IMG/VR virus record: IMGVR_UViG_3300042554_001073
Origin: a virus
Direction: 5' to 3' (one strand)
DNA: 64,000 bases
Of this stretch, positions 17,697-53,515 are shown piece by piece (the first letter of the stretch is position 1; each line of letters starts with the position of its first letter). A program made the translations under genes and the position numbers. The notes under the pieces were generated by a model. That model was not told the origin of the DNA and searched no databases. It saw only the letters and a program-made list of their open reading frames with translations.

Positions 17697-19274
17697 TCAG
17701 AATGATCCGCCGTCGATTGTGATATTCTCTAGATATCTGATGGTTCCAGTACAGGAAATCACCTGCGACTGACCAGCACAATCATTAACCCAAAGAGCAC
17801 CGATTTCAATCGCAGCATAGTTTGAAACAGTGATTTGTGGACTGTCGTTATCAGTACCACCACCATCAGAAACTTGTGAACCAAACTTAAATCTTCCGTC
17901 AGCGTGTTCCCAGATAACAGCAGACTTCTTCGCACCTGAAGAGTTGTAGTTGAAGAGAACACCAAGGTCCCAAGTTGTTGCTGAAGCAGGAGCAGATCCA
18001 TCAACTTGTCCAAGTTCAATGGTTCTGTCTTCAACAGTCATTGAAGCAGTATTGACCTGAGTTGTGGAACCATTTACATAAAGGTTTCCAGAAACAGTCA
18101 GGTTTTGTGCTGCGGTTAAGTTACCTGAAGTATCAATCGTAGCAGCATTTGTGCCATTAGAGTGCTTAATGGTTGCTACTTGTAGAGTTGGAGTGCTAAC
18201 AGCAGTTCCAACAACAACAGTATTTGGAAGACCAACAGTGATTGTTTGGCTGGAAACAGAAGTTTCAATCTCTCCAGCAGTACCAGAAACAGTTAAAGTT
18301 TGTGAGGTAGCAACTGTGCTTGGACCGCCACTATCAGCATTGATACCAAGAGTTAAATCAATTCCAGAAATAGCAGTATCAGTATAATCCTTAACCGCTG
18401 CTGATGTTGGAATTGATGTGTCGTTATCACTTGAACTAATACCTTCACCTTCAGTTACGATAGCAGAAGCAGCGAAATCAGCAACCTCTACATTTGAAAG
18501 TGAGTTGCCAGTTCCATTCGCATCAAATGTCTTATTGGTAAGAGTTGTAGTAGATGATGCGGTAATAAATCCAGAAGTCGTATTGCTGTAGTTAGCAAGG
18601 TCATTATCAACTACAAAATCAATCGTACCATCACTATCTTGATAGGTAACGGTGATTAAAGTTTCGGTGTTGCTGGAGACCATTGCTCCAACAATATCTT
18701 GAACTCTTTCTGCGTTTACTGTAACAACACCAGTAGATACTGTAAAATCAGTAGCGTCAAAAGAAGCAACACCCTTATTAGTATCACTTGCTAATTCGGC
18801 AGCAATTGTAATAGTATTATCGGTTACGGTCGTATCAATACCTTCTCCACCGCTAAATGTAATGGTTGCTCCAGTGCTTACACTATCAGGAGTTCCACTA
18901 TCAGCAGCAATATTGATATTACTTACAACTTGGTCCCAGGATAAAACACCTGAGGAGTTTGTCTTTAGGAAATATCCATCAGTCGCAGTTGCTGGGAATG
19001 TATAAGTCGTAATACCAGCAAGACTATCTGGAGACTTCAGTGTAATATATGACGTTCCGTTTGAAGTACCTTCTACAAGGTTTACGCCGCTACCTGTAGA
19101 TGAAGTGTTGTTGGTCCAGAACCTATGTGAACCAACGATTTTATTTTCGCCTGTGGTGCTATTAATACCCACATACAGATCGTAACTATCTGTAGTAAAA
19201 CCAGGTTCACCTGCCTGTAGACCAGGAAGATTAGCAAGGACACCCCTCTTAAACTGAATTACTGGGTTTGCCAT
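17697..19274 (-). CDS. tail-fibre / virion structural protein
   Basis: MANPVIQFKRG...GEPGFTTD N-terminus; VSGNLYVNGSTTQVNT; ends IDGGSF. Confidence 0.8.
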   Translation of the reverse strand: MANPVIQFKRGVLANLPGLQAGEPGFTTDSYDLYVGINSTTGENKIVGSHRFWTNNTSSTGSGVNLVEGTSNGTSYITLKSPDSLAGITTYTFPATATDGYFLKTNSSGVLSWDQVVSNINIAADSGTPDSVSTGATITFSGGEGIDTTVTDNTITIAAELASDTNKGVASFDATDFTVSTGVVTVNAERVQDIVGAMVSSNTETLITVTYQDSDGTIDFVVDNDLANYSNTTSGFITASSTTTLTNKTFDANGTGNSLSNVEVADFAASAIVTEGEGISSSDNDTSIPTSAAVKDYTDTAISGIDLTLGINADSGGPSTVATSQTLTVSGTAGEIETSVSSQTITVGLPNTVVVGTAVSTPTLQVATIKHSNGTNAATIDTSGNLTAAQNLTVSGNLYVNGSTTQVNTASMTVEDRTIELGQVDGSAPASATTWDLGVLFNYNSSGAKKSAVIWEHADGRFKFGSQVSDGGGTDNDSPQITVSNYAAIEIGALWVNDCAGQSQVISCTGTIRYLENITIDGGSF

Positions 19275-19310: not shown

Positions 19311-19541
19311 TTAAAAACTTCCTCCATCTATACCGGTGAAAGTGATATTATTTACATCTATTTCACTTTCAACAACGTCAATGAAATCTTGTGGTAGTTC
19401 AGTTGCTGTTAATAACACATCATCAGCAGGTATGACATCAAATTTACCTGTTGAATGATTATAACGCATTACATTTTTATTTTTTGATTGATTAAGTGGG
19501 TCAAAGTCAGTATCATTTAAGTCTCTTAATCTTGTCGGCAT
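19311..19541 (-). CDS. small virion protein, paralog of 19541..19864
   Basis: Shares D-L-D-T-x-F and LPxDF motifs; ends IDGGSF. Confidence 0.75.
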   Translation of the reverse strand: MPTRLRDLNDTDFDPLNQSKNKNVMRYNHSTGKFDVIPADDVLLTATELPQDFIDVVESEIDVNNITFTGIDGGSF

Positions 19542-19864
19542 CAGAAAGATCCTCCATCAAGATTGTCTAACTGAATTTGACCAAGATTTAACTCACCTTC
19601 TAATGCTGATACGAAATCATCAGGTAAAGCATTATCATCTGCGGAGGTACTTAAGAGTTGGTCTGCTGTAGTTAAAATAAACTTATTGTTAACACTATCA
19701 TATGATACAATCAAACCATCTTTTGTAGCATCCAACTCACCAAAAGCAGTATCGCCCATCTCACTAATAATAGATGGTTGTCTTACTGCTTGGGTTTTTA
19801 CTGTTTTTGCTGGTGCTTTTCTTGCGACATTAGCAATAGACTGTGCCTTTTTTACAACTGCCAT
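19541..19864 (-). CDS. small virion protein
   Basis: Ends LDGGSF; has a Lys/Ala-rich N-terminal extension. Confidence 0.75.
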   Translation of the reverse strand: MAVVKKAQSIANVARKAPAKTVKTQAVRQPSIISEMGDTAFGELDATKDGLIVSYDSVNNKFILTTADQLLSTSADDNALPDDFVSALEGELNLGQIQLDNLDGGSF

Positions 19865-20263: not shown

Positions 20264-20686
20264 TCATTCAGCAGGTGCTTCTTCTGCTGGTGGTTCGGGA
20301 GTTTCTAGTACCCAATCACCAGATTCCTCATCCCAACGATAGAATGAACGTGCTTCGATCTCTTCTTCAGTGAGTTCTGGAGCAGGACCAACTGGTGATT
20401 CCCAATCAGCAGTTTCTTCATTGAGAACCCAAGAAGCAAAAGGTTGTGGGGGGATGAAAGCATCCAGTTCTTCATTATAGGTATAACCAATACCAGCATA
20501 ACGAACTCTCATATTGTTGTTATATGAGGTTTGCTTCCAGTTGGTATCAGCCCCCAGAAGTTTCTTACAGAATGCTACACCGATCTCTTCTACTTCTACT
20601 CCATTTGAGTCAGAAGTATCTTCGTTACTCACAACAATGACTTGAGTAACAACGTTGTTTTCATCGAGTTGTGCGAAATGTGCCAT
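20264..20686 (-). CDS. MAHFA-type small protein, putative fibre assembly/accessory factor
   Basis: MAHFAQLDENNVVTQVIVV...WKQTSYN...YAGIGYTY...PQPFASW. Confidence 0.7.
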   Translation of the reverse strand: MAHFAQLDENNVVTQVIVVSNEDTSDSNGVEVEEIGVAFCKKLLGADTNWKQTSYNNNMRVRYAGIGYTYNEELDAFIPPQPFASWVLNEETADWESPVGPAPELTEEEIEARSFYRWDEESGDWVLETPEPPAEEAPAE

Positions 20687-20756: not shown

Positions 20757-21146
20757 TTAGTCTGGAGTTATTTTTTTCCATTCCCCCAAACTTTCATCCC
20801 ATAAAGTTGATGTGTTAATTTCTTTTTCTTCATCAGTTAAAATTGGTTCTGGTACAGGTGGAGTCCACTTCAAAGTGTTTTCATCAAATGTCCACGATGG
20901 ATATGGTTTTGTGGAAATAAATCCATCTTTAAACTTATCAAAGGTATTACCTATGTATCCCCAATTTTTTTTATTATCAATCATTACCCAATAATCTTTT
21001 TTTGAATCTGGATATTTTTCATATAAATGGGAGTATGCCCAATGTTCATATACATTACCATCATCATCTGTTACAATATCATCATCAAATATCTGAACAA
21101 CATCTACAACTTTGTTATTAGAATTAACTCTCGCAAAATTAAACAT
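20757..21146 (-). CDS. divergent paralog of 20264..20686
   Basis: MFNFARVNSNNKVVDVV...YIGNTFD...KPYPSWTFDE...WTPPVPEP. Confidence 0.7.
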   Translation of the reverse strand: MFNFARVNSNNKVVDVVQIFDDDIVTDDDGNVYEHWAYSHLYEKYPDSKKDYWVMIDNKKNWGYIGNTFDKFKDGFISTKPYPSWTFDENTLKWTPPVPEPILTDEEKEINTSTLWDESLGEWKKITPD

Positions 21147-22905: not shown

Positions 22906-23307
22906 TTAAATATCAGTATCGCCAAGGATTTGATAGTTCACGACACTACCAATACCTGCTCCCGCTAATCCAGATTGGGTAACTTCTACAACAATCTTTT
23001 CTTGATTTGTTAAAACTAGTGGGTAGTTCATCTCAAAGAAAAAAGTTTCATTTTGTGATAAATCTACTCTAGCAAGACGATAAACAGTTTGACCTACACC
23101 AGAAGCAGCAACACCACTTGGATAAACGTAAAGTGATGAAGTGCAGGTTGCTAGTCCAGTATTATGCATCACCACACCACGTAGATAAGTGGTTGATGCG
23201 ATACCAACTCCTCCAGCAGTTTGTGTAGTTCCTACAGTAAAAATACCAACAGTATTAATACCAGTAACTGCCTGTATTCCTAATAGTTTAGTTCTCTTGA
23301 GGGACAT
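22906..23307 (-). CDS. small beta-rich virion protein (adaptor family, copy 2), close paralog of 29244..29645
   Basis: GGVGIASTTYLRGVVMHNTGL...ETFFFEMNYPLVLTNQ...GDTDI. Confidence 0.85.
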   Translation of the reverse strand: MSLKRTKLLGIQAVTGINTVGIFTVGTTQTAGGVGIASTTYLRGVVMHNTGLATCTSSLYVYPSGVAASGVGQTVYRLARVDLSQNETFFFEMNYPLVLTNQEKIVVEVTQSGLAGAGIGSVVNYQILGDTDI

Positions 23308-24339: not shown

Positions 24340-26199
24340 TTATGAAGGATAAGCAATAAGGACGATACCGGAACCACCATTACCCCCCGGTCCAGCACCT
24401 GGGGTGCTTACGATGCCTCCACCTCCACCACCACCAGAACCTGTATTCTGTAATGCATTTGTGCCACTTGCTCCACTGGGTCCAGGGCCACCATTTCCTG
24501 CTCCAGCAAAAGGACCGCCAGGACCACCACCAATACCTCCATTATTTGATGCATTCCAGGCACCACCACCACCACCGCCAGCAAACCAATAACCACTTCC
24601 ACCAGGACCAGGAGCTCCTACTGTCGATGAAGGATTTCTAAATGATGGTGGTGCTTGCAGTCCTATACCACCAAAACCTCCCGCTATCGGAGCTGAAGGT
24701 GAAGGTCCTGGACCACCGACGCCACCAGCACCACCTCCTCCACCTGATGGATATCCAGGAGATCCACTACCACCAGAACCACCAGAGTTTCCATACTCTA
24801 TTGCTCCTGGATTTGTTGCTGGTTGTGCTGCTGGTGCTGCTGTTCCACCATCTCCCGCACCACCAGAAGAACCACCAGTATTAGATCCTGTGCCAGGCCA
24901 ACCTGCTCCACCAGCACCACCACGATAAGCAACATATGGTCCTGACGGATGAGTTACTGTAGTATCAACACCGTCAGTTCCCCTATTTGTTGGACTACTA
25001 CCTCTTGGAGCAACTCCACCAGCACCAACAGTGATTGTATAAGTTGCTGGTGATGGGAATGCTAGTCCAGGATGATAAACAATACCACCAGCACCTCCAC
25101 CACCACCAGATGCATAATTGGTTGGATTGGCATCTGGTCCACCAGAACCCCCACCGGCAACTATGAATACCTCTGCTGTTGGTATTGCTGATGTTGTTTG
25201 GAAAGTACCAGAACTCGTAAAGGTATGAATAGTCATACCATTATAATAACTTATAGCACCACCGGTTGCTTTTGCGGTTGCTGTTAGTTGTCCTATTTGG
25301 TAACGGACTACTACGATTCCGGAACCACCAGCACCACCAATTGCTGCCGGTGGTGAAGCAAATCCACCACCTTGTCCACCGTTTCCAGTGCTATAAGTTC
25401 CAGGAGATCCAGTATTATTTCCAGGGCCTCCACCAGCACCACCTGTAGAGTATGTGACAGAAGAACCACTATAGTTGTTTGAGGTTCCAGTGCCACCGGC
25501 ACCTCCTGTGCCAGCAGTGCCGTTACCTCCTACACCACCTGCTCCACCGCCTCCTCCACCAGCTCCTGGGAAAGCGGTGTGAGCTCTTCCACCATCATAA
25601 CCCTGTCTTGGTGGTCCAGCAGTTCCCGATCCACCTAGTCCAAAAGTAGATGCGTCACTTTGAGCTCCTCCGCCACCACCAGAACCTCCTGGAGATCCAT
25701 TAGTTCCACCACCAGAACCTCCTCCTCCTCCTCCAGTTGCTGATATTGGACCGAAAGAACTTGTTCCACCTTGAAATCCTTGGAAAGGTGAAGAATTTGG
25801 GAATGGCGCTGCCGCACCACCACCACCAACAACAATAGAAAAGGGTGCTGGAAAGGTTCCAGGATTTACTGGAAATCCTGTTGAAGTTAAAAGACCACCC
25901 GCTCCTCCTCCTCCAGCACCTCTACCATTAGATACATCCCCAAGTCCACCACCACCACCACCAGCAACTACAAGATACTCAACATTAGATCCAAAAGATC
26001 CAATAGAACTTACATCAAAAGTACCTGATGAAGTAAAGATGTGTGCTCTATAGACATCAGACCCATCTACATAATCACTGATAACCCCACCAGTTGCTGT
26101 AAGACCCTCTAATGGCGGTGGAGTAGAAGCATCCGTACCACTTCTTACGAAGGTGTCTAAAAACTGTTGTAGTGAATTATTGACTGATCTTACGCCCAT
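24340..26199 (-). CDS. two-domain glycine-rich putative adhesin head
   Basis: Two tandem ATGG...HxFTSSG...GGSGIV(V/L) units. Confidence 0.8.
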   Translation of the reverse strand: MGVRSVNNSLQQFLDTFVRSGTDASTPPPLEGLTATGGVISDYVDGSDVYRAHIFTSSGTFDVSSIGSFGSNVEYLVVAGGGGGGLGDVSNGRGAGGGGAGGLLTSTGFPVNPGTFPAPFSIVVGGGGAAAPFPNSSPFQGFQGGTSSFGPISATGGGGGGSGGGTNGSPGGSGGGGGAQSDASTFGLGGSGTAGPPRQGYDGGRAHTAFPGAGGGGGGAGGVGGNGTAGTGGAGGTGTSNNYSGSSVTYSTGGAGGGPGNNTGSPGTYSTGNGGQGGGFASPPAAIGGAGGSGIVVVRYQIGQLTATAKATGGAISYYNGMTIHTFTSSGTFQTTSAIPTAEVFIVAGGGSGGPDANPTNYASGGGGGAGGIVYHPGLAFPSPATYTITVGAGGVAPRGSSPTNRGTDGVDTTVTHPSGPYVAYRGGAGGAGWPGTGSNTGGSSGGAGDGGTAAPAAQPATNPGAIEYGNSGGSGGSGSPGYPSGGGGGAGGVGGPGPSPSAPIAGGFGGIGLQAPPSFRNPSSTVGAPGPGGSGYWFAGGGGGGAWNASNNGGIGGGPGGPFAGAGNGGPGPSGASGTNALQNTGSGGGGGGGIVSTPGAGPGGNGGSGIVLIAYPS

Positions 26200-26217
26200 T
26201 GGATGTTTTTTGAGTAT

Positions 26218-28200
26218 TTATGAAGGATAAGCGATGAGAACGATTCCGGAACCACCGTTGCCACCAGAATATGGGCTATTGTATCCGCCACCACCACCAG
26301 ATCCTGTATTTTCAAGAGCAGATGCTGCATTACCATTTCCAGCTCCTCCATGTGGACCCCCAGGAGCGCCATTTCCACCACCTTTTGATGGAGATCCAAC
26401 ATTACCACCAGCTCCTCCACCGGCAAACCAGTATAAACCAGAAGCATCCCCATTAGTATATGCCGTAGTTGGACCCGGAGCACCAACTGTTGAATTTATA
26501 TTTCTAAATGTTGCTGGAAGCTGCATTGCTTTTCCACCATTTGCAGCATTTGGAGCACTTTGAGGTGGAGCATTTTCACCCACTCCACCTGCTCCACCAC
26601 CGCCAGCGCCATAACCACCACCTCCAGAATGACCCCAATATCCAGCACCAGATGGTTCTGATGGTCCAATAGTTCCTGGAAACGGAGATCCTTGGGCGGG
26701 ACCGGGACTAGCCGACCCAGCATATCCGCCCCCGCCACCTGATCCTCCGGGAGAACCAGTACCGCCGCCAGGTGTTTGTCCATTTCCTCCACCTCCACCA
26801 CCAGGAGCAGTTAATGGTGCTCCAAAATAAGACTGTGTGCCAGTTCCACCAGAACCACCAGGAATACCTCCACCACCAAAAAGTCCTGCTATTCCTCCTA
26901 TACCACCAGCACCAATTTGAATGCTTGTTGATACTGGATGTGATCCTATTGTAGTAGTGCCTGTTCTGTAGGCACCAGCACCTCCACCTCCACCACCATT
27001 TGCTGCCGGTCCAGTGTTACCTCCACCACCTCCACCACCAATTACAACATACTCTACATTAGTTGAAGTCCAATTTGGTGCTGTTACAAAAGTACCAGAA
27101 CTCGTAAAGGTGTGAATTGTCTTGCCGCTATAGTAACTAATAGCACCACCAGTTGCTTTTGCGGTTGCTATTAATTGTCCTATTTGATATCTTACTACTA
27201 CGATTCCGGAACCACCGTTGCCGCCACTAAAAGGTGATACTGCAGATCCAGGTGATGTGGCACCACCTCCTCCACCACCTGTAGAATAAGTACCGGCATT
27301 TCCACCAACAGTTGCTGATCCATCACCTCCACCACCAGCACCACCAGGTCCAGCAGTAAATAATTGCCCCGCGTTTCCTGCTCCGCCACCCCCTCCAGCA
27401 AAGTATCCGCCACCAGGATTTGGACCAGGTGTTCCTATTGGTTGGGTTGATGTTGAAGGTCCAGCAATAAGAACTTGAGAACCTATTCCTCCAGCACCTG
27501 CATTTCCACTAGTAACATCAGAACCTGCTCCGCCAGCGCCACCTCCACCGCCACCTGCTCTGATAAGTGGTGCTGGAGTTATACCTCCAGGATTTCCTTG
27601 TGGTGGAGATGTTGGTGGAGAGTTTCCTGTACCTGCAGTTGTAGTATGTCCACCACCACCGCCAGAACCACCAGGAGCACCTGGAACAGGAACACCTGGA
27701 GCACTAAAAGAAGGTGGATTATAGAATTGTCCTCCATATCCACCACCATTAGATGTTATAGACCCAAATACTGAATTTGAACCACTTGTATTATTCCCAC
27801 CACCTCCACCAACAGTTACTGTATAAGAACCTGGTGAAGTTGATACTGGAAATGATGAACCTGCTAATGGATGTCCGATAAGATTAGTTCTTAAACCTCC
27901 AGCACCACCGCCACCTTGTCCAGTATCACCAGACGCTAGACCTCCACCTCCACCACCACCAGCAACTACAAGATACTCAACAGTATCACCATATTTACCA
28001 GGGGCAGTTACATTAAAAGTTCCTGATGATGTAAAAATGTGTGCTCTATAAACATCGGAACCATCTATATAATCACTTATAACACCACCAGTTGCTGTAA
28101 GACCTTCTGGAGGTGGTACTTCATTGGACGCATCAGTACCTGTCCTTGAGAGGTAATCTATAAAACCAGCGATTGGATTTCCGAGTGCTCTTAATGCCAT
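26218..28200 (-). CDS. two-domain glycine-rich putative adhesin head, paralog of 24340..26199
   Basis: Same architecture, with several 23-33 nt identical DNA blocks. Confidence 0.8.
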   Translation of the reverse strand: MALRALGNPIAGFIDYLSRTGTDASNEVPPPEGLTATGGVISDYIDGSDVYRAHIFTSSGTFNVTAPGKYGDTVEYLVVAGGGGGGGLASGDTGQGGGGAGGLRTNLIGHPLAGSSFPVSTSPGSYTVTVGGGGGNNTSGSNSVFGSITSNGGGYGGQFYNPPSFSAPGVPVPGAPGGSGGGGGHTTTAGTGNSPPTSPPQGNPGGITPAPLIRAGGGGGGAGGAGSDVTSGNAGAGGIGSQVLIAGPSTSTQPIGTPGPNPGGGYFAGGGGGAGNAGQLFTAGPGGAGGGGDGSATVGGNAGTYSTGGGGGGATSPGSAVSPFSGGNGGSGIVVVRYQIGQLIATAKATGGAISYYSGKTIHTFTSSGTFVTAPNWTSTNVEYVVIGGGGGGGNTGPAANGGGGGGAGAYRTGTTTIGSHPVSTSIQIGAGGIGGIAGLFGGGGIPGGSGGTGTQSYFGAPLTAPGGGGGGNGQTPGGGTGSPGGSGGGGGYAGSASPGPAQGSPFPGTIGPSEPSGAGYWGHSGGGGYGAGGGGAGGVGENAPPQSAPNAANGGKAMQLPATFRNINSTVGAPGPTTAYTNGDASGLYWFAGGGAGGNVGSPSKGGGNGAPGGPHGGAGNGNAASALENTGSGGGGGYNSPYSGGNGGSGIVLIAYPS

Positions 28201-28218
28201 TTTATAGTTTTTGAATAT

Positions 28219-29241
28219 TTATGCTAGTGTTCTGTAACGAATGATAATAATTCCAGATCCACCTGCGCCACCGGCAGTGTTGACTGGTCCTCCACCGGCG
28301 CCACCACCACCACCACCAGTATTGGCAGTTCCCGGATCACCTACAGTATCAGTGCTTTTTCCAGCACCACCACCACCAGCTCCACCAGAACCAGCAGTAT
28401 TACTTGTTGGATGTGTTCCCCCTCCACCACCACCTGCTAAATATCTCCCAGGCTGTGGTCCCGTGGTTCCATAAGAATTTGGTATTGAATATTCTGCAGT
28501 AAAACGACTTCCACTACCTCCAGGTCCACCAGATCCTGGTTGTCCAGAAGCAGTAGCTCCACCTCCACCACCTCCACCAGATGATCCAGATGATCCTCCT
28601 GGATAACCTTGCGTATAAGGTGGTCCTGAAGGAGGGTATCCAGAACCAGGAGCACTTGGAGCATTAGCATCAGCACCAGCGCCACCACCAGATCCACCGG
28701 CAGCAGCATTTTGTCCCTCATTAGCTCCACCCCCGCCGCCACCAAAAGCAGTATATCCAAAAGCAGTTGTATCAGATCCATTTGGACCAGTTCCTGGACT
28801 ACCTGTTGGTGCCGGTCCTCCTGCACCAACAGTAAATGAATAGTTCTGAACTGTTACAGTATGTGTTCCTGGAGTATTTGGACGAAGTGGATGATTTAAG
28901 AAGTTTGTAAGGAGACCACCGGCACCACCTCCACCTCCGCCTCGGCGGGTATCTCCATTTTGGGAATAACCACCGGCACCACCACCCGCTATAAGAATAT
29001 ATTCAACTTCACCTGGACCATTTACATTTGTTACATTAAATGGTTGTGGATTAGATGTTGGTGTAAAATAATGATATGTGTAAATTTTTCCATCTGGAGA
29101 TGAAACATTTTCTTCTTTTACTCCACCCGTTGCTGTAATTCCCGATATTGATGCAATAACGGGCTTAGAAGCCCTATTCCCAGTTCTATTGAACCGATCC
29201 CTAAAACTTGCTGCGGAATTACCAAGTGCTCTTACGACCAT
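28219..29241 (-). CDS. glycine-rich putative adhesin head
   Basis: ITATGG...YHYFT...SYGTTGPQPGRYLAGGGGG...GGSGIIIIRY. Confidence 0.8.
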   Translation of the reverse strand: MVVRALGNSAASFRDRFNRTGNRASKPVIASISGITATGGVKEENVSSPDGKIYTYHYFTPTSNPQPFNVTNVNGPGEVEYILIAGGGAGGYSQNGDTRRGGGGGGAGGLLTNFLNHPLRPNTPGTHTVTVQNYSFTVGAGGPAPTGSPGTGPNGSDTTAFGYTAFGGGGGGANEGQNAAAGGSGGGAGADANAPSAPGSGYPPSGPPYTQGYPGGSSGSSGGGGGGGATASGQPGSGGPGGSGSRFTAEYSIPNSYGTTGPQPGRYLAGGGGGGTHPTSNTAGSGGAGGGGAGKSTDTVGDPGTANTGGGGGGAGGGPVNTAGGAGGSGIIIIRYRTLA

Positions 29242-29243
29242 AA

Positions 29244-29645
29244 TTAGATATCAGTGTCGCCATTGACTAGGAAATTAACAGCAGATCCAATACCAGCACC
29301 ACCAGTATCAGGAGCATTAACTTCTACAACTAACTTGTCCTGATTTGTCATTGTAATCGGATAATTGGTTTCAAAGAATGTAGTTTCACTTGGTGCCAAA
29401 TCAACTCTTAAAACTCTATATGCTGTTTGAGCTACACCTGTTACTGAAACACTGCTTGGGTAAAGATATAAAGAAGTTCTTGCGGTTCCAAGTCCAGTAT
29501 TGTGCATTACAATACTTCTAATGTAAGTAGTAGAAGCAATTCCAACACCACCTGCGGTTGGAGTTACTCCAACAGTTAAAATTCCTACTGTAGCAATTCC
29601 TGTTACTGAGGTTACATTAAGAAGTTCTGTCTTTCTAAGTGCCAT
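29244..29645 (-). CDS. small beta-rich virion protein (adaptor family, copy 1)
   Basis: GGVGIASTTYIRSIVMHNTGL...ETTFFETNYPITMTNQ...GDTDI. Confidence 0.85.
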   Translation of the reverse strand: MALRKTELLNVTSVTGIATVGILTVGVTPTAGGVGIASTTYIRSIVMHNTGLGTARTSLYLYPSSVSVTGVAQTAYRVLRVDLAPSETTFFETNYPITMTNQDKLVVEVNAPDTGGAGIGSAVNFLVNGDTDI

Positions 29646-29665
29646 TTTCCCGTCCTTTTTTATAT

Positions 29666-29881
29666 TTAGAAGAAGAGACCTGAAGTGATGTCATTAGCAC
29701 CACCAGAACCTGCTGCGGCAACGCCAGTAAGATTAGAACCATCTCCATAATATGTAACAATGCCAGTAGTTGCAGTTACAATACCTGAAGAAATTCTAAC
29801 AGTACCTATAGTACTGACCCCAGTAACATTAAGTTGTCTACTGTCATCAATAACAGTAGTTCCTGAAATCTTAATTGCCAT
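29666..29881 (-). CDS. short tail-fibre stub
   Basis: MAIKISGTTVIDDSR; GIVTYYGDGSNLTG; C-terminus NDITSGLFF. Confidence 0.8.
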   Translation of the reverse strand: MAIKISGTTVIDDSRQLNVTGVSTIGTVRISSGIVTATTGIVTYYGDGSNLTGVAAAGSGGANDITSGLFF

Positions 29882-29908: not shown

Positions 29909-31678
29909 TTATTTAGCGTTCTTAAGTTCTTCTACTTCTGCTTTCAATTCCTTGATTGCTTCAATCAGAACACCAATAATACCATTATAGTTCACAGTCT
30001 TGGGGTCATTGCCGTGAACCAGTTCAGGAAGAACCTGTTCTAGTTCTTGTGCGATAACACCATAAGAAGGAGTACCACTTTCTTTCCAATCAAACTTAAC
30101 ACCACGAAGTTGTTCTACTTTAAGTAGTGCGTTATTAACTGTTGTTATATTTTCCTTATAATTTTGATCAGAAAGCGCATCAAAATCTTGAGCAGTTACA
30201 ATACCAGAAGAATTAATATTTCCAGTTATTAGTCTGGTTGAAGTAATAATACCAGTTACATTAATACCACTTGGATTGATATTTAGAATTGAAGATCCAA
30301 CAGATACAAATGTCTGCTGCCCTGCCCCAGGCGAGAATAATCCAGTTGTCGAATCACCAACGAATGAGAGACTTGGATTTGATGCTGTTTGTGGAGCAAG
30401 TGTTATTGATGTAATCAGTGATGTAACAATACCAATATTAAATGGAGCAGCATCAACCCATTGAGCACTATCAGTATCTTGATAGTAAATAAACAGTCTA
30501 CCAAGATTTGTGTTATACCAAAGATTTCCAGATGTTATTACACCAACAAATGCGTCTCCTGGAGTAGATCCAATACCAATAGAAGCACTTCCTCCACCAC
30601 CACCTTCAAAGTAAATGGTAGCAATGCCCACATTGCCATCATAAAGAGCAGTAGATACTCCAGCACCTCTAAGATCTAAGAAAGAAACTCCATATCCAAC
30701 CACACCACCAGTTGTTCCAACTCCAATCGTAGCAGTTAGATTTCTAGCATTTCCAGTTAGGTATGAACCATCTCCATAATATGTGACAATACCCGAAGTT
30801 GCAGTTACAACACCAGAAGAAACAAGAACTGTTCCTAAAGTTGAAATACCAGTTACATTTAAATCAGTCGTATCAACATTTGATACTAAGATATCACCAC
30901 CGTTAATATCGACTGTGGCAATAGTTGCGATTCCAGTTACATTTAAATCAGTCGTATCTACATTAGATACTTCAATATCACCAGCATTGATATCAACTGT
31001 TGCGAGTGTTGTAACTCCAACTACATTTAAATTATCAGAGATATCGACCGAATCATTAATATCAACATATCCACCAATAGTTGTCAACCCAACTACATTT
31101 AAATCACCAGAAACATCAACCGAATCATTAATGTCAACATAACTTCCTAGAGTTGTTAATCCAACAACGTTTAGGTCTACATTGATATCAACAGATCCAT
31201 TAAAGTCTGTAAATCCAGCAAAGGTAGAAATTCCTGGACTATTTCCGACATATAAGTATTCACTAACAGTTAAGTTGGATAGAGTAGCATCATCAAGTGT
31301 TATATCATCAACACTTAAATCGCCAGTAATTCTTACATCACCTTGTACATAAAGTGCCGTTTGTCCTGTAGATACTGGAGATCGAACATCCAATAAGTAA
31401 GCAGGAAATGCTGTTCCGACGCCAACAGACTGACCAACTCCAGATGGACCAGCAATAACACTGAATACTTCTCCAGCATTACCAACTCTTAATTCATTTG
31501 CTACCGTTGATATTCCACCAACATAAGAGTCAGTAACTCCAATTCCACCATTAACGTGGAAGACATATCTCGGAACCGTCGTACCAATACCAACCTTATC
31601 TACTGTAGCGTCTGCGACGATAAGATTGGTATTTACCTCAAACCCGTTCTTTACAACAAAGTTCTTATTGATTGCCAT
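29909..31678 (-). CDS. tail fibre with internal tandem repeats and C-terminal peptidase S74 chaperone
   Basis: LNVVG/LNVTG repeats; ALSDQNYKENI...LRGVKFDW...VNYNGIIGVLIEAIKE. Confidence 0.85.
   Translation of the reverse strand: MAINKNFVVKNGFEVNTNLIVADATVDKVGIGTTVPRYVFHVNGGIGVTDSYVGGISTVANELRVGNAGEVFSVIAGPSGVGQSVGVGTAFPAYLLDVRSPVSTGQTALYVQGDVRITGDLSVDDITLDDATLSNLTVSEYLYVGNSPGISTFAGFTDFNGSVDINVDLNVVGLTTLGSYVDINDSVDVSGDLNVVGLTTIGGYVDINDSVDISDNLNVVGVTTLATVDINAGDIEVSNVDTTDLNVTGIATIATVDINGGDILVSNVDTTDLNVTGISTLGTVLVSSGVVTATSGIVTYYGDGSYLTGNARNLTATIGVGTTGGVVGYGVSFLDLRGAGVSTALYDGNVGIATIYFEGGGGGSASIGIGSTPGDAFVGVITSGNLWYNTNLGRLFIYYQDTDSAQWVDAAPFNIGIVTSLITSITLAPQTASNPSLSFVGDSTTGLFSPGAGQQTFVSVGSSILNINPSGINVTGIITSTRLITGNINSSGIVTAQDFDALSDQNYKENITTVNNALLKVEQLRGVKFDWKESGTPSYGVIAQELEQVLPELVHGNDPKTVNYNGIIGVLIEAIKELKAEVEELKNAK
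30849..31200. repeat. tandem coding repeats (84-nt and 72-nt periods) in the fibre shaft
   Basis: 26-nt identity at 30849..30874 / 30933..30958; CCAACTACATTTAAAT at 31017 and 31089. Confidence 0.85.
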
Positions 31679-51959: not shown

Positions 51960-52178
51960 TTAGTCTTCATAAATTTTACATTCAGCAGCATCTGGATTTT
52001 CATCACAGAACATTTCAAATGCTGTGGGGTCATGGTCTTCATCGGGATGATTTACTTTATACTTTTCTAGATGTTCTAGTTCATCCTCAATATGTCTTCT
52101 CTGCTGCGGAGAAAGAGTTGGATTTTCTAATATATCTTTATCGTCGTTGATATGTTGTTGTAGAGTTCTGTCTGTCAT
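51960..52178 (-). CDS. cp12: CP12 Calvin-cycle inhibitor, phage type
   Basis: C-terminal FEMFCDENPDAAECKIYED is the CP12 C-x8-C loop; N-terminal Cys pair absent. Confidence 0.9.
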   Translation of the reverse strand: MTDRTLQQHINDDKDILENPTLSPQQRRHIEDELEHLEKYKVNHPDEDHDPTAFEMFCDENPDAAECKIYED

Positions 52179-53515
52179 TTTAGTGATTTTCCTGAAGTGT
52201 GATTTCCAGTTCTACCAAAAGAGTCTCTAACTAAATTTAACTTTGTGTATGTTTCTTTTGGCGAAATGTAATGACATAAATCCGCTATAATATATAGACC
52301 ACCATTTTCTTTACTTACGTTTTTTGTTTCTGGTGCTAGTTCTGGAACATCGAGAAAAATAACATCCCCAGCGTGTAATGAAAAATCTCCAACAATAGTA
52401 ATAGTACACTTAGAAGCAAACAATTGATTATATCTCATACTTGATTGATTTAAAATATTTTTAGAGTCAAAGTTTTGCTTTTTAGATTTTTGAATTTGTT
52501 GTTTAGTGGATCCATCAGGTAAAGACCCCTTATCAACAAGCATATACTGTGTTCTAGAAAATTCTTTGTTTCTACCAGGTATGTCAAATTCTGGGTTTAG
52601 TTTAGGAAGCTCTTTACCAGCAAGTTTTAATTTTTCTTCTTCCTCTTTAGCATTTGGGGTTATAACTTCGTAATAACAATTAAAAGGATCGAAGAGTATT
52701 GTTCTTGTAGAATAGGCACCCATTTTCAGTTTTTCCTGAACATCTACTCTATTATCTTTCGCATAATCTAAAACCTTAGCATCATATCCAGCAGGAATGT
52801 TATCTCCTCCACTATCAGGCGTTTGGTTGAATATAAAGGACTTTTTCTTTTCTTGAGAAAGAAGTCCATCAATAGACTTGAACTTAAATCCCTCAGAAGT
52901 TTCAAAGAAAAAATATCCAGCACTTACACCAAGTTTCTGATTCTCTGCGGAAACCGCTTTCTTCGACAACCAGTTCATCGCATAACACGCTTTCCAGTTG
53001 TTTCCTATAAAATTATATTCTCCAATAGTTTCTTCAACATCAATTTCCTTTTCAGTAGCAAGAAAATTTGAGTTAGTAAAAATATCTCTTATATGGTCTG
53101 AAATTTTTCCAGTAAATTTAGTATTTAATCTAATCTTCTCATTTAAAATAGATTCCTTTGAAGATAAATCCAATTGAACCATAGATTTTGTAGTATCATC
53201 AGACAATGGAGTTACTTTGTTCACATACAAAGTAAGGTTTAAATTCTGTTCATTGTTATCTCTAAACTTAATTGTCACATTTTCTTCGCCAACAATCGGC
53301 AATCCTTCAAGTGCTGTTTTATTATCAACTGAATTACCAGTATCAGCAAATGTGACAGTTGCTTTTATAGTATCATTCAAAATGCTTTCATAATATAATA
53401 AACGAATAGTTCCACCAGAGACATCAACAGTTTTTGTCGTACTTTTATTGGAAGTGATTATTATTCCATCAATAAAAGAAGCTTCTGCACTTTTTGTTGT
53501 GATCTGATTTGCCAT
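52175..53515 (-). CDS. baseplate hub protein, gp27-like
   Basis: YYESI...GLPIVGEE...YFFFETSEGFKFKSID...GDFSLHAGDVI...YIIADLCH. Confidence 0.7.
   Translation of the reverse strand: MANQITTKSAEASFIDGIIITSNKSTTKTVDVSGGTIRLLYYESILNDTIKATVTFADTGNSVDNKTALEGLPIVGEENVTIKFRDNNEQNLNLTLYVNKVTPLSDDTTKSMVQLDLSSKESILNEKIRLNTKFTGKISDHIRDIFTNSNFLATEKEIDVEETIGEYNFIGNNWKACYAMNWLSKKAVSAENQKLGVSAGYFFFETSEGFKFKSIDGLLSQEKKKSFIFNQTPDSGGDNIPAGYDAKVLDYAKDNRVDVQEKLKMGAYSTRTILFDPFNCYYEVITPNAKEEEEKLKLAGKELPKLNPEFDIPGRNKEFSRTQYMLVDKGSLPDGSTKQQIQKSKKQNFDSKNILNQSSMRYNQLFASKCTITIVGDFSLHAGDVIFLDVPELAPETKNVSKENGGLYIIADLCHYISPKETYTKLNLVRDSFGRTGNHTSGKSLK

What the first reader, a model, noticed from the sequence alone, without database searches (positions are those of the whole stretch)
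24340..29241. Three alternative heads after one adaptor share an N-terminal docking-like sequence
N-termini are MVVRALGNSAASFRDRFNRTGNRAS (28219), MALRALGNPIAGFIDYLSRTGTDAS (26218) and MGVRSVNNSLQQFLDTFVRSGTDAS (24340), consensus M-x-x-R-x-x-x-N-x4-F-x-D-x3-R-(T/S)-G-x-x-AS. Heads of other cassettes have different leaders. 26218 and 24340 each have their own TAAATA promoter (28216, 26215). Inference: these three compete for or co-occupy the 29244 adaptor, giving mixed tips.
Basis: partly seen in the sequence, partly recalled or inferred. Interest (0 to 1): 0.7.

Follow-up and report, generated by a model that had tools for sequence, protein, structure and literature searches.

The report
Slot-specific anchor peptides on cyanophage fibre heads
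Three neighbouring genes of a Bellamy-like ocean cyanophage encode host-binding fibre tips that all start with a conserved 25-residue tag, which most likely plugs interchangeable tips into up to three fixed places at the end of a tail fibre; this is a new variant of a known phage design.

Summary
The genes at 28219, 26218 and 24340 (minus strand) start with the quoted N-termini. A profile of this leader matches only residues 1-30 of genes that follow the type-A 133-aa gene, with at least 36 bits against at most 5.8 bits of noise.

The three proteins are Pam3-gp24-like TNF-like/glycine-rich receptor-binding heads (PF21722; Z 16.2 to PDB 7YPX). In the model the leader is a low-confidence N-terminal extension with one short helix.

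About 100 related cassettes from viral and metagenome contigs show four things:
- The array holds one to three leader-bearing heads, never more.
- Each array position has its own leader variant, which is kept by purifying selection.
- Head bodies are swapped between positions and replaced by unrelated folds (DUF7483, beta-propeller) behind unchanged leaders.
- Leader class follows the clade of the 133-aa jelly-roll protein, not the tail motif of the upstream fibre.

The leader is therefore best read as a slot-specific anchor peptide. Binding to the 133-aa protein is plausible but not shown. Position-specific leaders favour co-occupation of distinct sites over simple competition.

The closest known systems are the anchor/branch receptor-binding systems with conserved N-terminal peptides (K1-5/SP6, KP32, G7C). 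This scan noted similar connector cassettes before on other DNA (e1-5686251; 121Q-like phages).

The parts
29909..31678 (-). Fibre protein, 589 aa, with a C-terminal self-cleaving intramolecular chaperone domain; first gene of the cassette (context)
   Evidence: Pfam Peptidase_S74 1e-15 at residues 503-555; many PHROG tail-fibre families
29666..29881 (-). 71-aa fibre segment ending in the conserved C-terminal tail ..DITSGLFF
   Evidence: PHROG fibre/baseplate repeat hits. Counterparts in related loci are 71-296 aa long, with different N-terminal parts but the same tail class
29663..29668 (-). TAAATA late-promoter-like motif upstream of the 133-aa gene, overlapping the stop codon of 29666
29244..29645 (-).
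   Evidence: Model pLDDT 81 with eight strands. Best structural match is 7dou_4, a trimeric cement protein, at Z 10.0, followed by generic jelly rolls. 3935 relatives in metagenomes, but Bellamy is the only match in the phage collection
28219..29241 (-). Head 1, 340 aa, one TNF-like/glycine-rich domain; starts 2 nt after the stop of the 133-aa gene and has no promoter motif of its own
   Evidence: PF21722 9.5e-26. Model pLDDT 84.8. Z 16.2, rmsd 2.7 A over 193 residues to Pam3 fibre 7ypx_A
29167..29241 (-). Leader of head 1 (codons 1-25), slot-1 variant ending ..TGNRAS
   Evidence: Identical in L002, L003 and L005, with 5, 8 and 6 synonymous and 0 non-synonymous codon changes. pLDDT about 50, helix at residues 9-18
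28216..28221 (-). TAAATA motif upstream of head 2, overlapping the stop codon of head 1
26218..28200 (-). Head 2, 660 aa, two TNF-like/glycine-rich domains
   Evidence: PF21722 4.1e-28, two stretches; phrog_2295 1e-102
28126..28200 (-). Leader of head 2 (codons 1-25), slot-2 variant ending ..TGTDAS
   Evidence: 80-84% identical to slot-2 leaders of other phages and 40-48% to slot-3 leaders
26215..26220 (-). TAAATA motif upstream of head 3, overlapping the stop codon of head 2
24340..26199 (-). Head 3, 619 aa, two TNF-like/glycine-rich domains; its first domain is the counterpart of the head-2 body of L003
   Evidence: PF21722 5.2e-31. Residues 26-110 are 86% and residues 111-330 are 88% identical to L003 head 2
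26125..26199 (-). Leader of head 3 (codons 1-25), slot-3 variant ending ..RSGTDAS
   Evidence: 25/25 identical to L003 and L011 head 3, with 4 and 5 synonymous and 0 non-synonymous codon changes

Best explanation
The window comes from a Bellamy-like T4-type cyanomyovirus. The genes at 28219, 26218 and 24340 encode paralogous receptor-binding heads with the TNF-like plus glycine-rich fold of the Pam3 gp24 fibre tip. In place of gp24's helical docking domain, each head carries a leader of about 25 residues. The leader is flexible on its own and contains one short amphipathic helix.

I read this leader as an anchor peptide that mounts the head on the joint at the end of the fibre encoded just upstream. 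That joint is made of the 133-aa jelly-roll protein (29244), the conserved C-terminal tail of the 71-aa fibre segment (29666), or both.

The array has up to three positions. Each position has its own conserved leader variant, while the binding bodies behind the leaders are exchanged freely. One fibre tip would therefore display up to three different adhesins, each in a defined place.

Shown here: the fold of the heads, the modularity and position-specificity of the leader, purifying selection on it, the limit of three heads, and the match between leader class and small-protein clade. Inferred: that the leader docks at all, that its partner is the 133-aa protein, and the stoichiometry.
For: Heads:
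- PF21722 is found in all three proteins.
- Residues 53-340 of the head-1 model match Pam3 fibre 7ypx_A at Z 16.2, rmsd 2.7 A, 193 residues and 28% identity, and Bxb1 tail tip 9d93_Qb at Z 14.8.
- Pam3 gp24 is a receptor-binding fibre whose N-terminal domain docks to the baseplate (PMC9608196).

Leader as a separate module:
- Residues 1-30 have pLDDT 46-53 with a helix at 9-18, while the body is confident.
- In L006, L080 and L081 the same leaders precede DUF7483 and SBBP beta-propeller bodies.
- The body of window head 3 is 86-88% identical to L003 head 2, but its leader is 25/25 identical to L003 head 3.

Selection:
- Orthologous leaders are 80-100% identical, against 43-63% for the bodies.
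- Codon changes in the head-1 leader are 5, 8 and 6 synonymous and 0 non-synonymous.

Position specificity:
- Leaders cluster by gene position, 76-100% within a position and 36-48% between positions. The bodies do not.
- 15 distinct three-head arrays keep the same three signatures in the same order.

Limit on the array:
- Among arrays whose end is seen, 12 have three heads, 8 have two and 7 have one. None has more.

Partner:
- The small-protein tree splits into clades A and B with 100% SH-aLRT, and leader class follows that split without exception.
- Eight clade-A cassettes carry the fibre-tail class that otherwise goes with clade B.

Expression:
- Head 1 starts 2 nt after the small gene.
- Heads 2 and 3 have the TAAATA motif that precedes about half of the late genes.
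Against: - No direct evidence of binding exists.
- The small gene and head 1 are adjacent, so agreement between their types may only reflect linkage.
- The conserved promoter-bearing spacer between the fibre gene and the small gene could be a recombination hot spot. That would explain why the fibre tail is the part that gets swapped.
- Other cassettes in the same phages attach glycine-rich heads directly behind a fibre without any small protein (14094; L034). A small protein is therefore not generally required.
- Jelly-roll proteins of this size can also be chaperones or decorations. The fold match is generic apart from one cement protein.
- Sites on a threefold-symmetric fibre would be equivalent, which does not by itself explain three different leader variants.
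Confidence: 0.62

Rival explanations
1. The leader docks directly onto the upstream fibre (its C-terminal tail or tip) or onto another virion part. The 133-aa jelly-roll protein is a non-structural assembly chaperone for the fibre or the heads and is absent from the particle.
For: Phage fibre chaperone genes usually lie right after the fibre gene, as this one does. The fibre tail, the small gene and the leader always occur together. Cassettes with MAP-type leaders dock heads behind fibres without any small protein.
Against: The small protein stays about 70% identical when the heads behind it are of unrelated folds (L006), so it cannot be a body-specific folding chaperone. Fibre-tail class is exchanged at least three times within small-protein clade A while the leader class does not change. 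A different conserved small gene (phrog_7759) follows most head arrays and is an alternative chaperone candidate.
Confidence: 0.2
2. The leader is mainly an oligomerisation element, the counterpart of the Pam3 gp24 N-terminal helical bundle. It assembles heads into homotrimers, or into ordered 1:1:1 heterotrimers in three-gene phages. Attachment to the fibre would be a secondary role or would use another surface.
For: In Pam3 gp24 the N-terminal helices provide most of the trimer contacts (PMC9608196). The leader has a predicted helix at residues 9-18. Three distinct conserved variants and a maximum of three genes would fit a heterotrimer.
Against: A ten-residue helix is short for a stable bundle. 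Arrays with two heads exist. The same leaders precede DUF7483 and beta-propeller bodies whose oligomeric states need not match.
Confidence: 0.12
3. The shared N-terminus is only a trace of tandem gene duplication, or reflects constraints on translation start at the nucleotide level, and has no role of its own in the protein.
For: The three genes are clear paralogues. Heads 2 and 3 would have very short 5' untranslated regions.
Against: Synonymous changes accumulate while amino acids stay fixed. Between heads 2 and 3 the leader is less similar than the adjoining body, yet between phages it is far more conserved than the body. The leader is kept in front of unrelated folds.
Confidence: 0.04

Closest known systems
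Anchor/branch receptor-binding systems with short conserved N-terminal peptides: the K1-5/K1E/SP6 adaptor with two tailspikes, KP32/KP34/Menlow-group Klebsiella phages, and G7C gp66-gp63.1 (PMC6872550; PMC13352976)
   Same: Several tandem receptor-binding genes have divergent, exchangeable bodies and a short N-terminal peptide conserved within the phage group (7, 11 or about 29 residues in those systems, about 25 here). A separate adaptor or branching element is encoded just upstream. The peptide differs for each attachment site.
   Different: The host is a cyanobacterium and the phage is a T4-type myovirus. The heads are TNF-like/glycine-rich adhesins, not beta-helix depolymerases. The candidate adaptor is a 133-aa single jelly roll with no detected likeness to T4 gp10-type branching domains or to the K1-5 adaptor. 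There are up to three positions, with bodies shuffled between them. Binding has not been shown here.
Cyanophage Pam3 tail fibre gp24 with chaperone gp25 (PDB 7YPX/7YFW; PMC9608196)
   Same: The body has the same TNF-like plus glycine-rich fold (Z 16.2, 28% identity). An N-terminal part is used for attachment and a distal glycine-rich tip for the receptor.
   Different: gp24 has a helical docking and trimerisation domain of about 76 residues and attaches to the baseplate as the only fibre. Here a 25-residue leader replaces it, the heads come in arrays of one to three, some have two tandem domains, and they sit at the end of a multi-protein fibre.
T2/T6/S16 gp38 adhesin capping the gp37 long-fibre tip, and the T4 gp34-gp35-gp36-gp37 fibre joints
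   Same: A separately encoded glycine-rich adhesin is attached through its N-terminal part to the end of a fibre. The fibre is built from several gene products, with small connector proteins at the joints.
   Different: There is no sequence or detected structural match to gp38 or gp35. In those phages there is one adhesin per tip, not up to three paralogues with position-specific leaders.

Membership tests
Gly_rich_2 (PF21722) / Pam3 gp24-type TNF-like plus glycine-rich fibre tips | Sequence match to the family profile above the curated cut-off | tested here: met
   91.6, 99.4 and 108.8 bits against a cut-off of 24.3 for the three heads
Gly_rich_2 (PF21722) / Pam3 gp24-type TNF-like plus glycine-rich fibre tips | TNF-like beta-sandwich carrying a stacked glycine-rich lattice | tested here: met
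   Head-1 model (pLDDT 84.8) against 7ypx_A: Z 16.2, rmsd 2.7 A, 193 residues. ALK/LTK TG domains give Z 6.3-7.6
Gly_rich_2 (PF21722) / Pam3 gp24-type TNF-like plus glycine-rich fibre tips | Long N-terminal alpha-helical domain that trimerises the fibre and docks it to the baseplate | tested here: not met
   The structural match starts at gp24 residue 77. The head has only a 25-residue leader with one helix at residues 9-18, followed by a linker
Anchor/branch receptor-binding systems with conserved docking peptides | Short N-terminal peptide conserved across otherwise divergent or unrelated receptor-binding bodies | tested here: met
Anchor/branch receptor-binding systems with conserved docking peptides | Branching or adaptor domain of the T4 gp10 type, or a K1-5 gp37-type adaptor, that receives the peptide | tested here: inconclusive
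   The 133-aa protein has no Pfam family and no sequence relative in the PDB. Fold searches list generic jelly rolls, not these domains
Anchor/branch receptor-binding systems with conserved docking peptides | Physical binding of the peptide to the adaptor and presence of both in the virion | not testable with these tools
   Needs pull-down, virion mass spectrometry or cryo-EM
T4-type late promoters | TATAAATA-like box a short distance upstream of late genes | tested here: inconclusive
   The core TAAATA lies 14-36 nt before 23 of 50 starts and is the commonest A4T2 hexamer there. The full octamer is not enriched. No transcript data are available

The most novel reading that the evidence does not exclude
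The joint has exactly three non-equivalent sockets. The three leader variants direct an ordered 1:1:1 assembly, so that every fibre tip carries three different adhesins at once, a heteromeric three-headed tip. Phages with one or two head genes fill the sockets with fewer kinds. Bodies can be moved between sockets by recombination at the leader/body junction. This would be a built-in combinatorial host-range device in very abundant aquatic cyanophages.
Probability: 0.25. Interest if true: 0.75.

Novelty: new variant of a known kind. Interest (0 to 1): 0.55.

Why it matters
Receptor-binding proteins set the host range of cyanophages that control Synechococcus and Prochlorococcus populations, yet these cassettes are annotated only as hypothetical proteins. 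The single cultured carrier is phage Bellamy, while the 133-aa protein has thousands of relatives in marine and freshwater metagenomes. The leader signature gives a simple sequence rule for finding the receptor-binding genes of this lineage and for counting how many adhesins a phage displays. It also marks where natural module exchange takes place. It extends the conserved-docking-peptide design, so far described mostly for capsule-degrading coliphages and Klebsiella phages, to T4-type cyanophages with polyglycine adhesins. It also points to a small jelly-roll protein as a possible new kind of connector.

Tried and rejected
1. Complex prediction of the 133-aa protein (alignment A2) with the 35-residue leader (A6): no verdict, score 0.00 in both runs, controls not run. 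This says nothing either way about binding.
2. The idea that the small protein is a detached copy of the C-terminal socket domain of the MAP-type fibres (15029, 8920 and relatives): profile-profile comparison gave probability 1.4%. No sequence support.
3. Search for fused forms of the small protein with a fibre or a head: none among proteins of 234-2000 aa. This is weak evidence. A distant 429-aa protein has two tandem copies.
4. Leader-profile search of 5.8 billion proteins: 386 hits. The 120 best hits listed, where they have a Pfam family, carry PF21722 (one PF12810), because the 42-residue query includes the start of the glycine-rich body. It was therefore not useful for counting body types.
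5. Nucleotide search of the phage collection with the 10-kb region: no match. Protein searches found only Bellamy.
6. No whole genome is held for this window.
7. Protein-atlas look-up of the small protein: only unnamed viral clusters.
8. PDB sequence searches with the small-protein and head profiles and with the phrog_7759 protein: nothing.
9. In L013-L016 a 56%-identical small protein sits after a terminase small-subunit gene and before a 666-aa fibre-like protein. The N-terminus of that protein looks faintly leader-like by eye but does not match the leader profile at E < 10.
10. Considered and set aside: the leader as a T4-style capsid-targeting or protease-processed sequence, or as a recognition tag for the nearby 2OG-Fe(II) oxygenases. 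No oxygenase adjoins this array, and neither idea explains the position-specific variants.
Full report
**What the region is**

All genes of interest lie on the minus strand. The only relative of the 133-aa protein in the phage collection is Synechococcus phage Bellamy (Kyanoviridae, Bellamyvirus), at 69% identity. There, as here, these genes are annotated as hypothetical or tail-fibre proteins. The window therefore comes from a Bellamy-like T4-type cyanomyovirus.

It contains a series of fibre cassettes. Cassette A reads, in order of transcription:
- a 589-aa fibre with a Peptidase_S74 self-cleaving chaperone domain (29909);
- a 71-aa fibre segment that ends in ..DITSGLFF (29666);
- a 133-aa protein (29244);
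- three glycine-rich proteins of 340, 660 and 619 aa (28219, 26218, 24340).

Other cassettes in the window have paralogous small proteins at 22906, 13144, 10939 and 4374, each followed by one glycine-rich protein.

**Check of the observation**

The three N-termini are as quoted. An alignment of 25 such N-termini from ten phages has N8 and G21 invariant and M1 and F13 nearly invariant.

A profile built from this alignment was run against every ORF of the window and of 17 related loci. It matches only residues 1-30 of genes that follow a type-A small gene. The weakest of these matches scores 36.0 bits and the best other match 5.8 bits. In the window it finds only the three genes of the finding. 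The statement that other cassettes have other leaders is therefore right.

TAAATA lies at 28216-28221 and 26215-26220. In both places it overlaps the preceding stop codon and ends 15 nt before the ATG. The hexamer lies within 45 nt upstream of 23-24 of 50 minus-strand starts. It is the commonest of all hexamers of the same composition there, and its spacing to the ATG clusters at 14-21 nt. Its being a T4-type late promoter core is an inference from knowledge of T4-like phages. The full T4 octamer is not enriched.

Head 1 has no such motif and starts two bases after the stop of the 133-aa gene.

**What the proteins are**

All three heads match Pfam Gly_rich_2, the two longer ones twice.

A model of head 1 (pLDDT 84.8, pTM 0.84) has a confident body. 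Its first 30 residues have pLDDT 46-53 and hold one helix at residues 9-18. Residues 53-340 superpose on:
- the fibre of cyanophage Pam3 (7ypx_A), at Z 16.2, rmsd 2.7 A, 193 residues and 28% identity;
- a chain of the Bxb1 tail tip, at Z 14.8;
- the TNF-like/glycine-rich domains of ALK and LTK, at Z 6.3-7.6.

Pam3 gp24 is a receptor-binding fibre with an N-terminal helical domain that docks to the baseplate. [quoted passage not shown] The heads here lack that helical domain, and the leader stands in its place.

The 133-aa protein has no Pfam family and belongs to phrog_20100, of unknown function. It has 3935 relatives at 90% clustering but only 103 clusters at 50%. Its model (pLDDT 81) is an eight-stranded jelly roll. 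The best structural match is the trimeric cement protein of Helicobacter phage KHP40 (Z 10.0, rmsd 2.9 A, 109 residues). Generic jelly-roll capsid proteins and spore-appendage subunits follow at Z 7-9. The fold does not assign a function.

**The leader is a module of its own**

Seventeen viral contigs and 80 metagenome contigs that carry the small protein were collected.

- Orthologous leaders are 80-100% identical to those of the window, while the bodies behind them are 43-63% identical.
- At the codon level, the head-1 leader differs from L002, L003 and L005 by 5, 8 and 6 synonymous changes and no non-synonymous ones. The head-3 leader differs from L003 and L011 by 4 and 5 synonymous changes and none non-synonymous. 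The conservation is therefore at the protein level.
- In L006, L080 and L081 the same three leaders, in the same order, precede two DUF7483 proteins and an SBBP beta-propeller protein instead of glycine-rich domains.
- The body of window head 3 is 86% (residues 26-110) and 88% (residues 111-330) identical to head 2 of L003. Its leader, however, is identical to that of L003 head 3 and only 40% identical to that of L003 head 2.

Bodies therefore move between positions, with breakpoints at the leader/body junction and at the linker between the two domains. The leader stays with the position.

**Position-specific variants and a limit of three**

Leaders of heads 2 and 3 from five phages are 76-100% identical within a position and 36-48% identical between positions. 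The bodies show no such grouping.

Fifteen non-redundant three-head arrays all have a slot-1 leader ending in ..TG(N/K)RA-type residues, a slot-2 leader of the ..KTGTDA type and a slot-3 leader of the ..RSGTDA type, in that order. Two-head arrays have their own two signatures. One-head arrays carry either a Bellamy-type or a slot-2-like leader.

Among arrays whose downstream end is on the contig, 12 have three heads, 8 have two and 7 have one. None has more than three. A few of the 'two' may be cut short by frameshifts in the assemblies.

Residues that are fixed within a position but differ between positions point to different constraints at each position. This argues against three heads simply competing for one identical site.

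**Which partner**

The fibre tail, the small protein and the leader occur together, so co-occurrence alone cannot name the partner. Two observations lean towards the small protein.

First, it stays about 70% identical in L006, where all three bodies are of other folds. The only thing its downstream neighbours share is then the leader.

Second, a tree of 83 small proteins splits into clades A and B with 100% SH-aLRT support. Leader class follows this split without exception. The class of the upstream fibre tail changes at least three times inside clade A. Eight distinct cassettes combine the ..ELDAALF-type tail with a clade-A small protein and class-A leaders, and no cassette combines a DITS-type tail with class-B leaders.

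The caveat is that the small gene and head 1 are 2 nt apart, whereas the fibre and small genes are separated by a conserved promoter-bearing spacer that may favour recombination.

Cassettes of another type (14094 in the window; L034) place glycine-rich heads directly behind a fibre that has a larger C-terminal domain and no small protein. Docking without a small protein therefore also occurs. That C-terminal domain shows no sequence likeness to the small protein.

**Comparison with what is known**

The design is known: tandem receptor-binding genes with exchangeable bodies, short N-terminal peptides conserved within a phage group, and an adaptor or branching element encoded upstream. It has been described for K1-5/K1E/SP6, G7C and several groups of Klebsiella phages. 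The peptides there are 7, 11 or about 29 residues long and differ for each attachment site (PMC6872550). An experimental test is reported in PMC13352976 (abstract only).

The new elements here are:
- the lineage, T4-type cyanomyoviruses;
- the kind of head, polyglycine adhesins, sometimes with two tandem domains;
- a jelly-roll candidate connector;
- three ordered positions, with bodies shuffled among them.

I found no paper that describes these cassettes in Bellamy-like phages.

Earlier notes of this scan describe small beta-sandwich connectors between fibre parts in another ocean cyanophage (e1-5686251) and portable N-terminal tags in 121Q-like coliphages (e1-352869). They agree with this reading but are not independent evidence.

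**Verdict**

Distinct sites are more likely than competition for one site. I class it as a new variant of a known kind and score interest at 0.55.

Noticed in passing
window 20264-20686 and 20757-21146 (minus strand); also L010, L018, L074, L082, L083, L090, L096, L099, L108 and Bellamy gp34: A conserved protein of about 140 aa (phrog_7759, unknown function, no Pfam family) follows the last head of the array in most related loci and is present twice here. It is a candidate head chaperone, in the position that gp25 holds in Pam3.
   Followed up: partly
window 17697-19274, 19311-19541, 19541-19864 (minus strand): Three consecutive fibre-region proteins of very different length all end in the same C-terminal ..DGGSF. 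This may be another junction motif of the modular fibre.
   Followed up: no
L052, L056, L070-L073, L075, L097: Cassettes in which a fibre ending in the ..ELDAALF-type tail, otherwise paired with clade-B small proteins, precedes a clade-A small protein and class-A leaders. This shows natural exchange at the fibre/small-gene boundary.
   Followed up: yes
L006 8405-13984; L080; L081: The three leaders sit on two DUF7483 proteins and an SBBP beta-propeller protein instead of glycine-rich heads.
   Followed up: yes
L034 6254-8839: A fibre with the same N-terminus as the window's 71-aa segment ends in a larger domain instead of the short tail. It is followed directly by a two-domain glycine-rich head with a MAP-type leader, with no small protein.
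   Followed up: partly
L013-L016: A 56%-identical small protein occurs in another T4-like lineage. It overlaps the end of the terminase small-subunit gene and lies upstream of two fibre-like genes of about 660 aa.
   Followed up: partly
protein P0201: A distant 429-aa relative has two tandem copies of the small jelly-roll domain plus an extra C-terminal domain. Its genomic context is unknown.
   Followed up: no
window 52175-53515 (minus strand): This tail protein (phrog_350) has a C-terminal stretch that resembles the second half of the slot-1 leader, and an N-terminal ..ASFID.. like the slot-2 leader. The match is E 0.43 and probably chance.
   Followed up: partly
None adjoins the three-head array.
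   Followed up: no
L037-L116: From their names, some of the contigs that carry the cassette appear to come from freshwater and others from marine (e.g. TARA) metagenomes. I did not check sample origins. If that holds, the lineage is not confined to the ocean.
   Followed up: no
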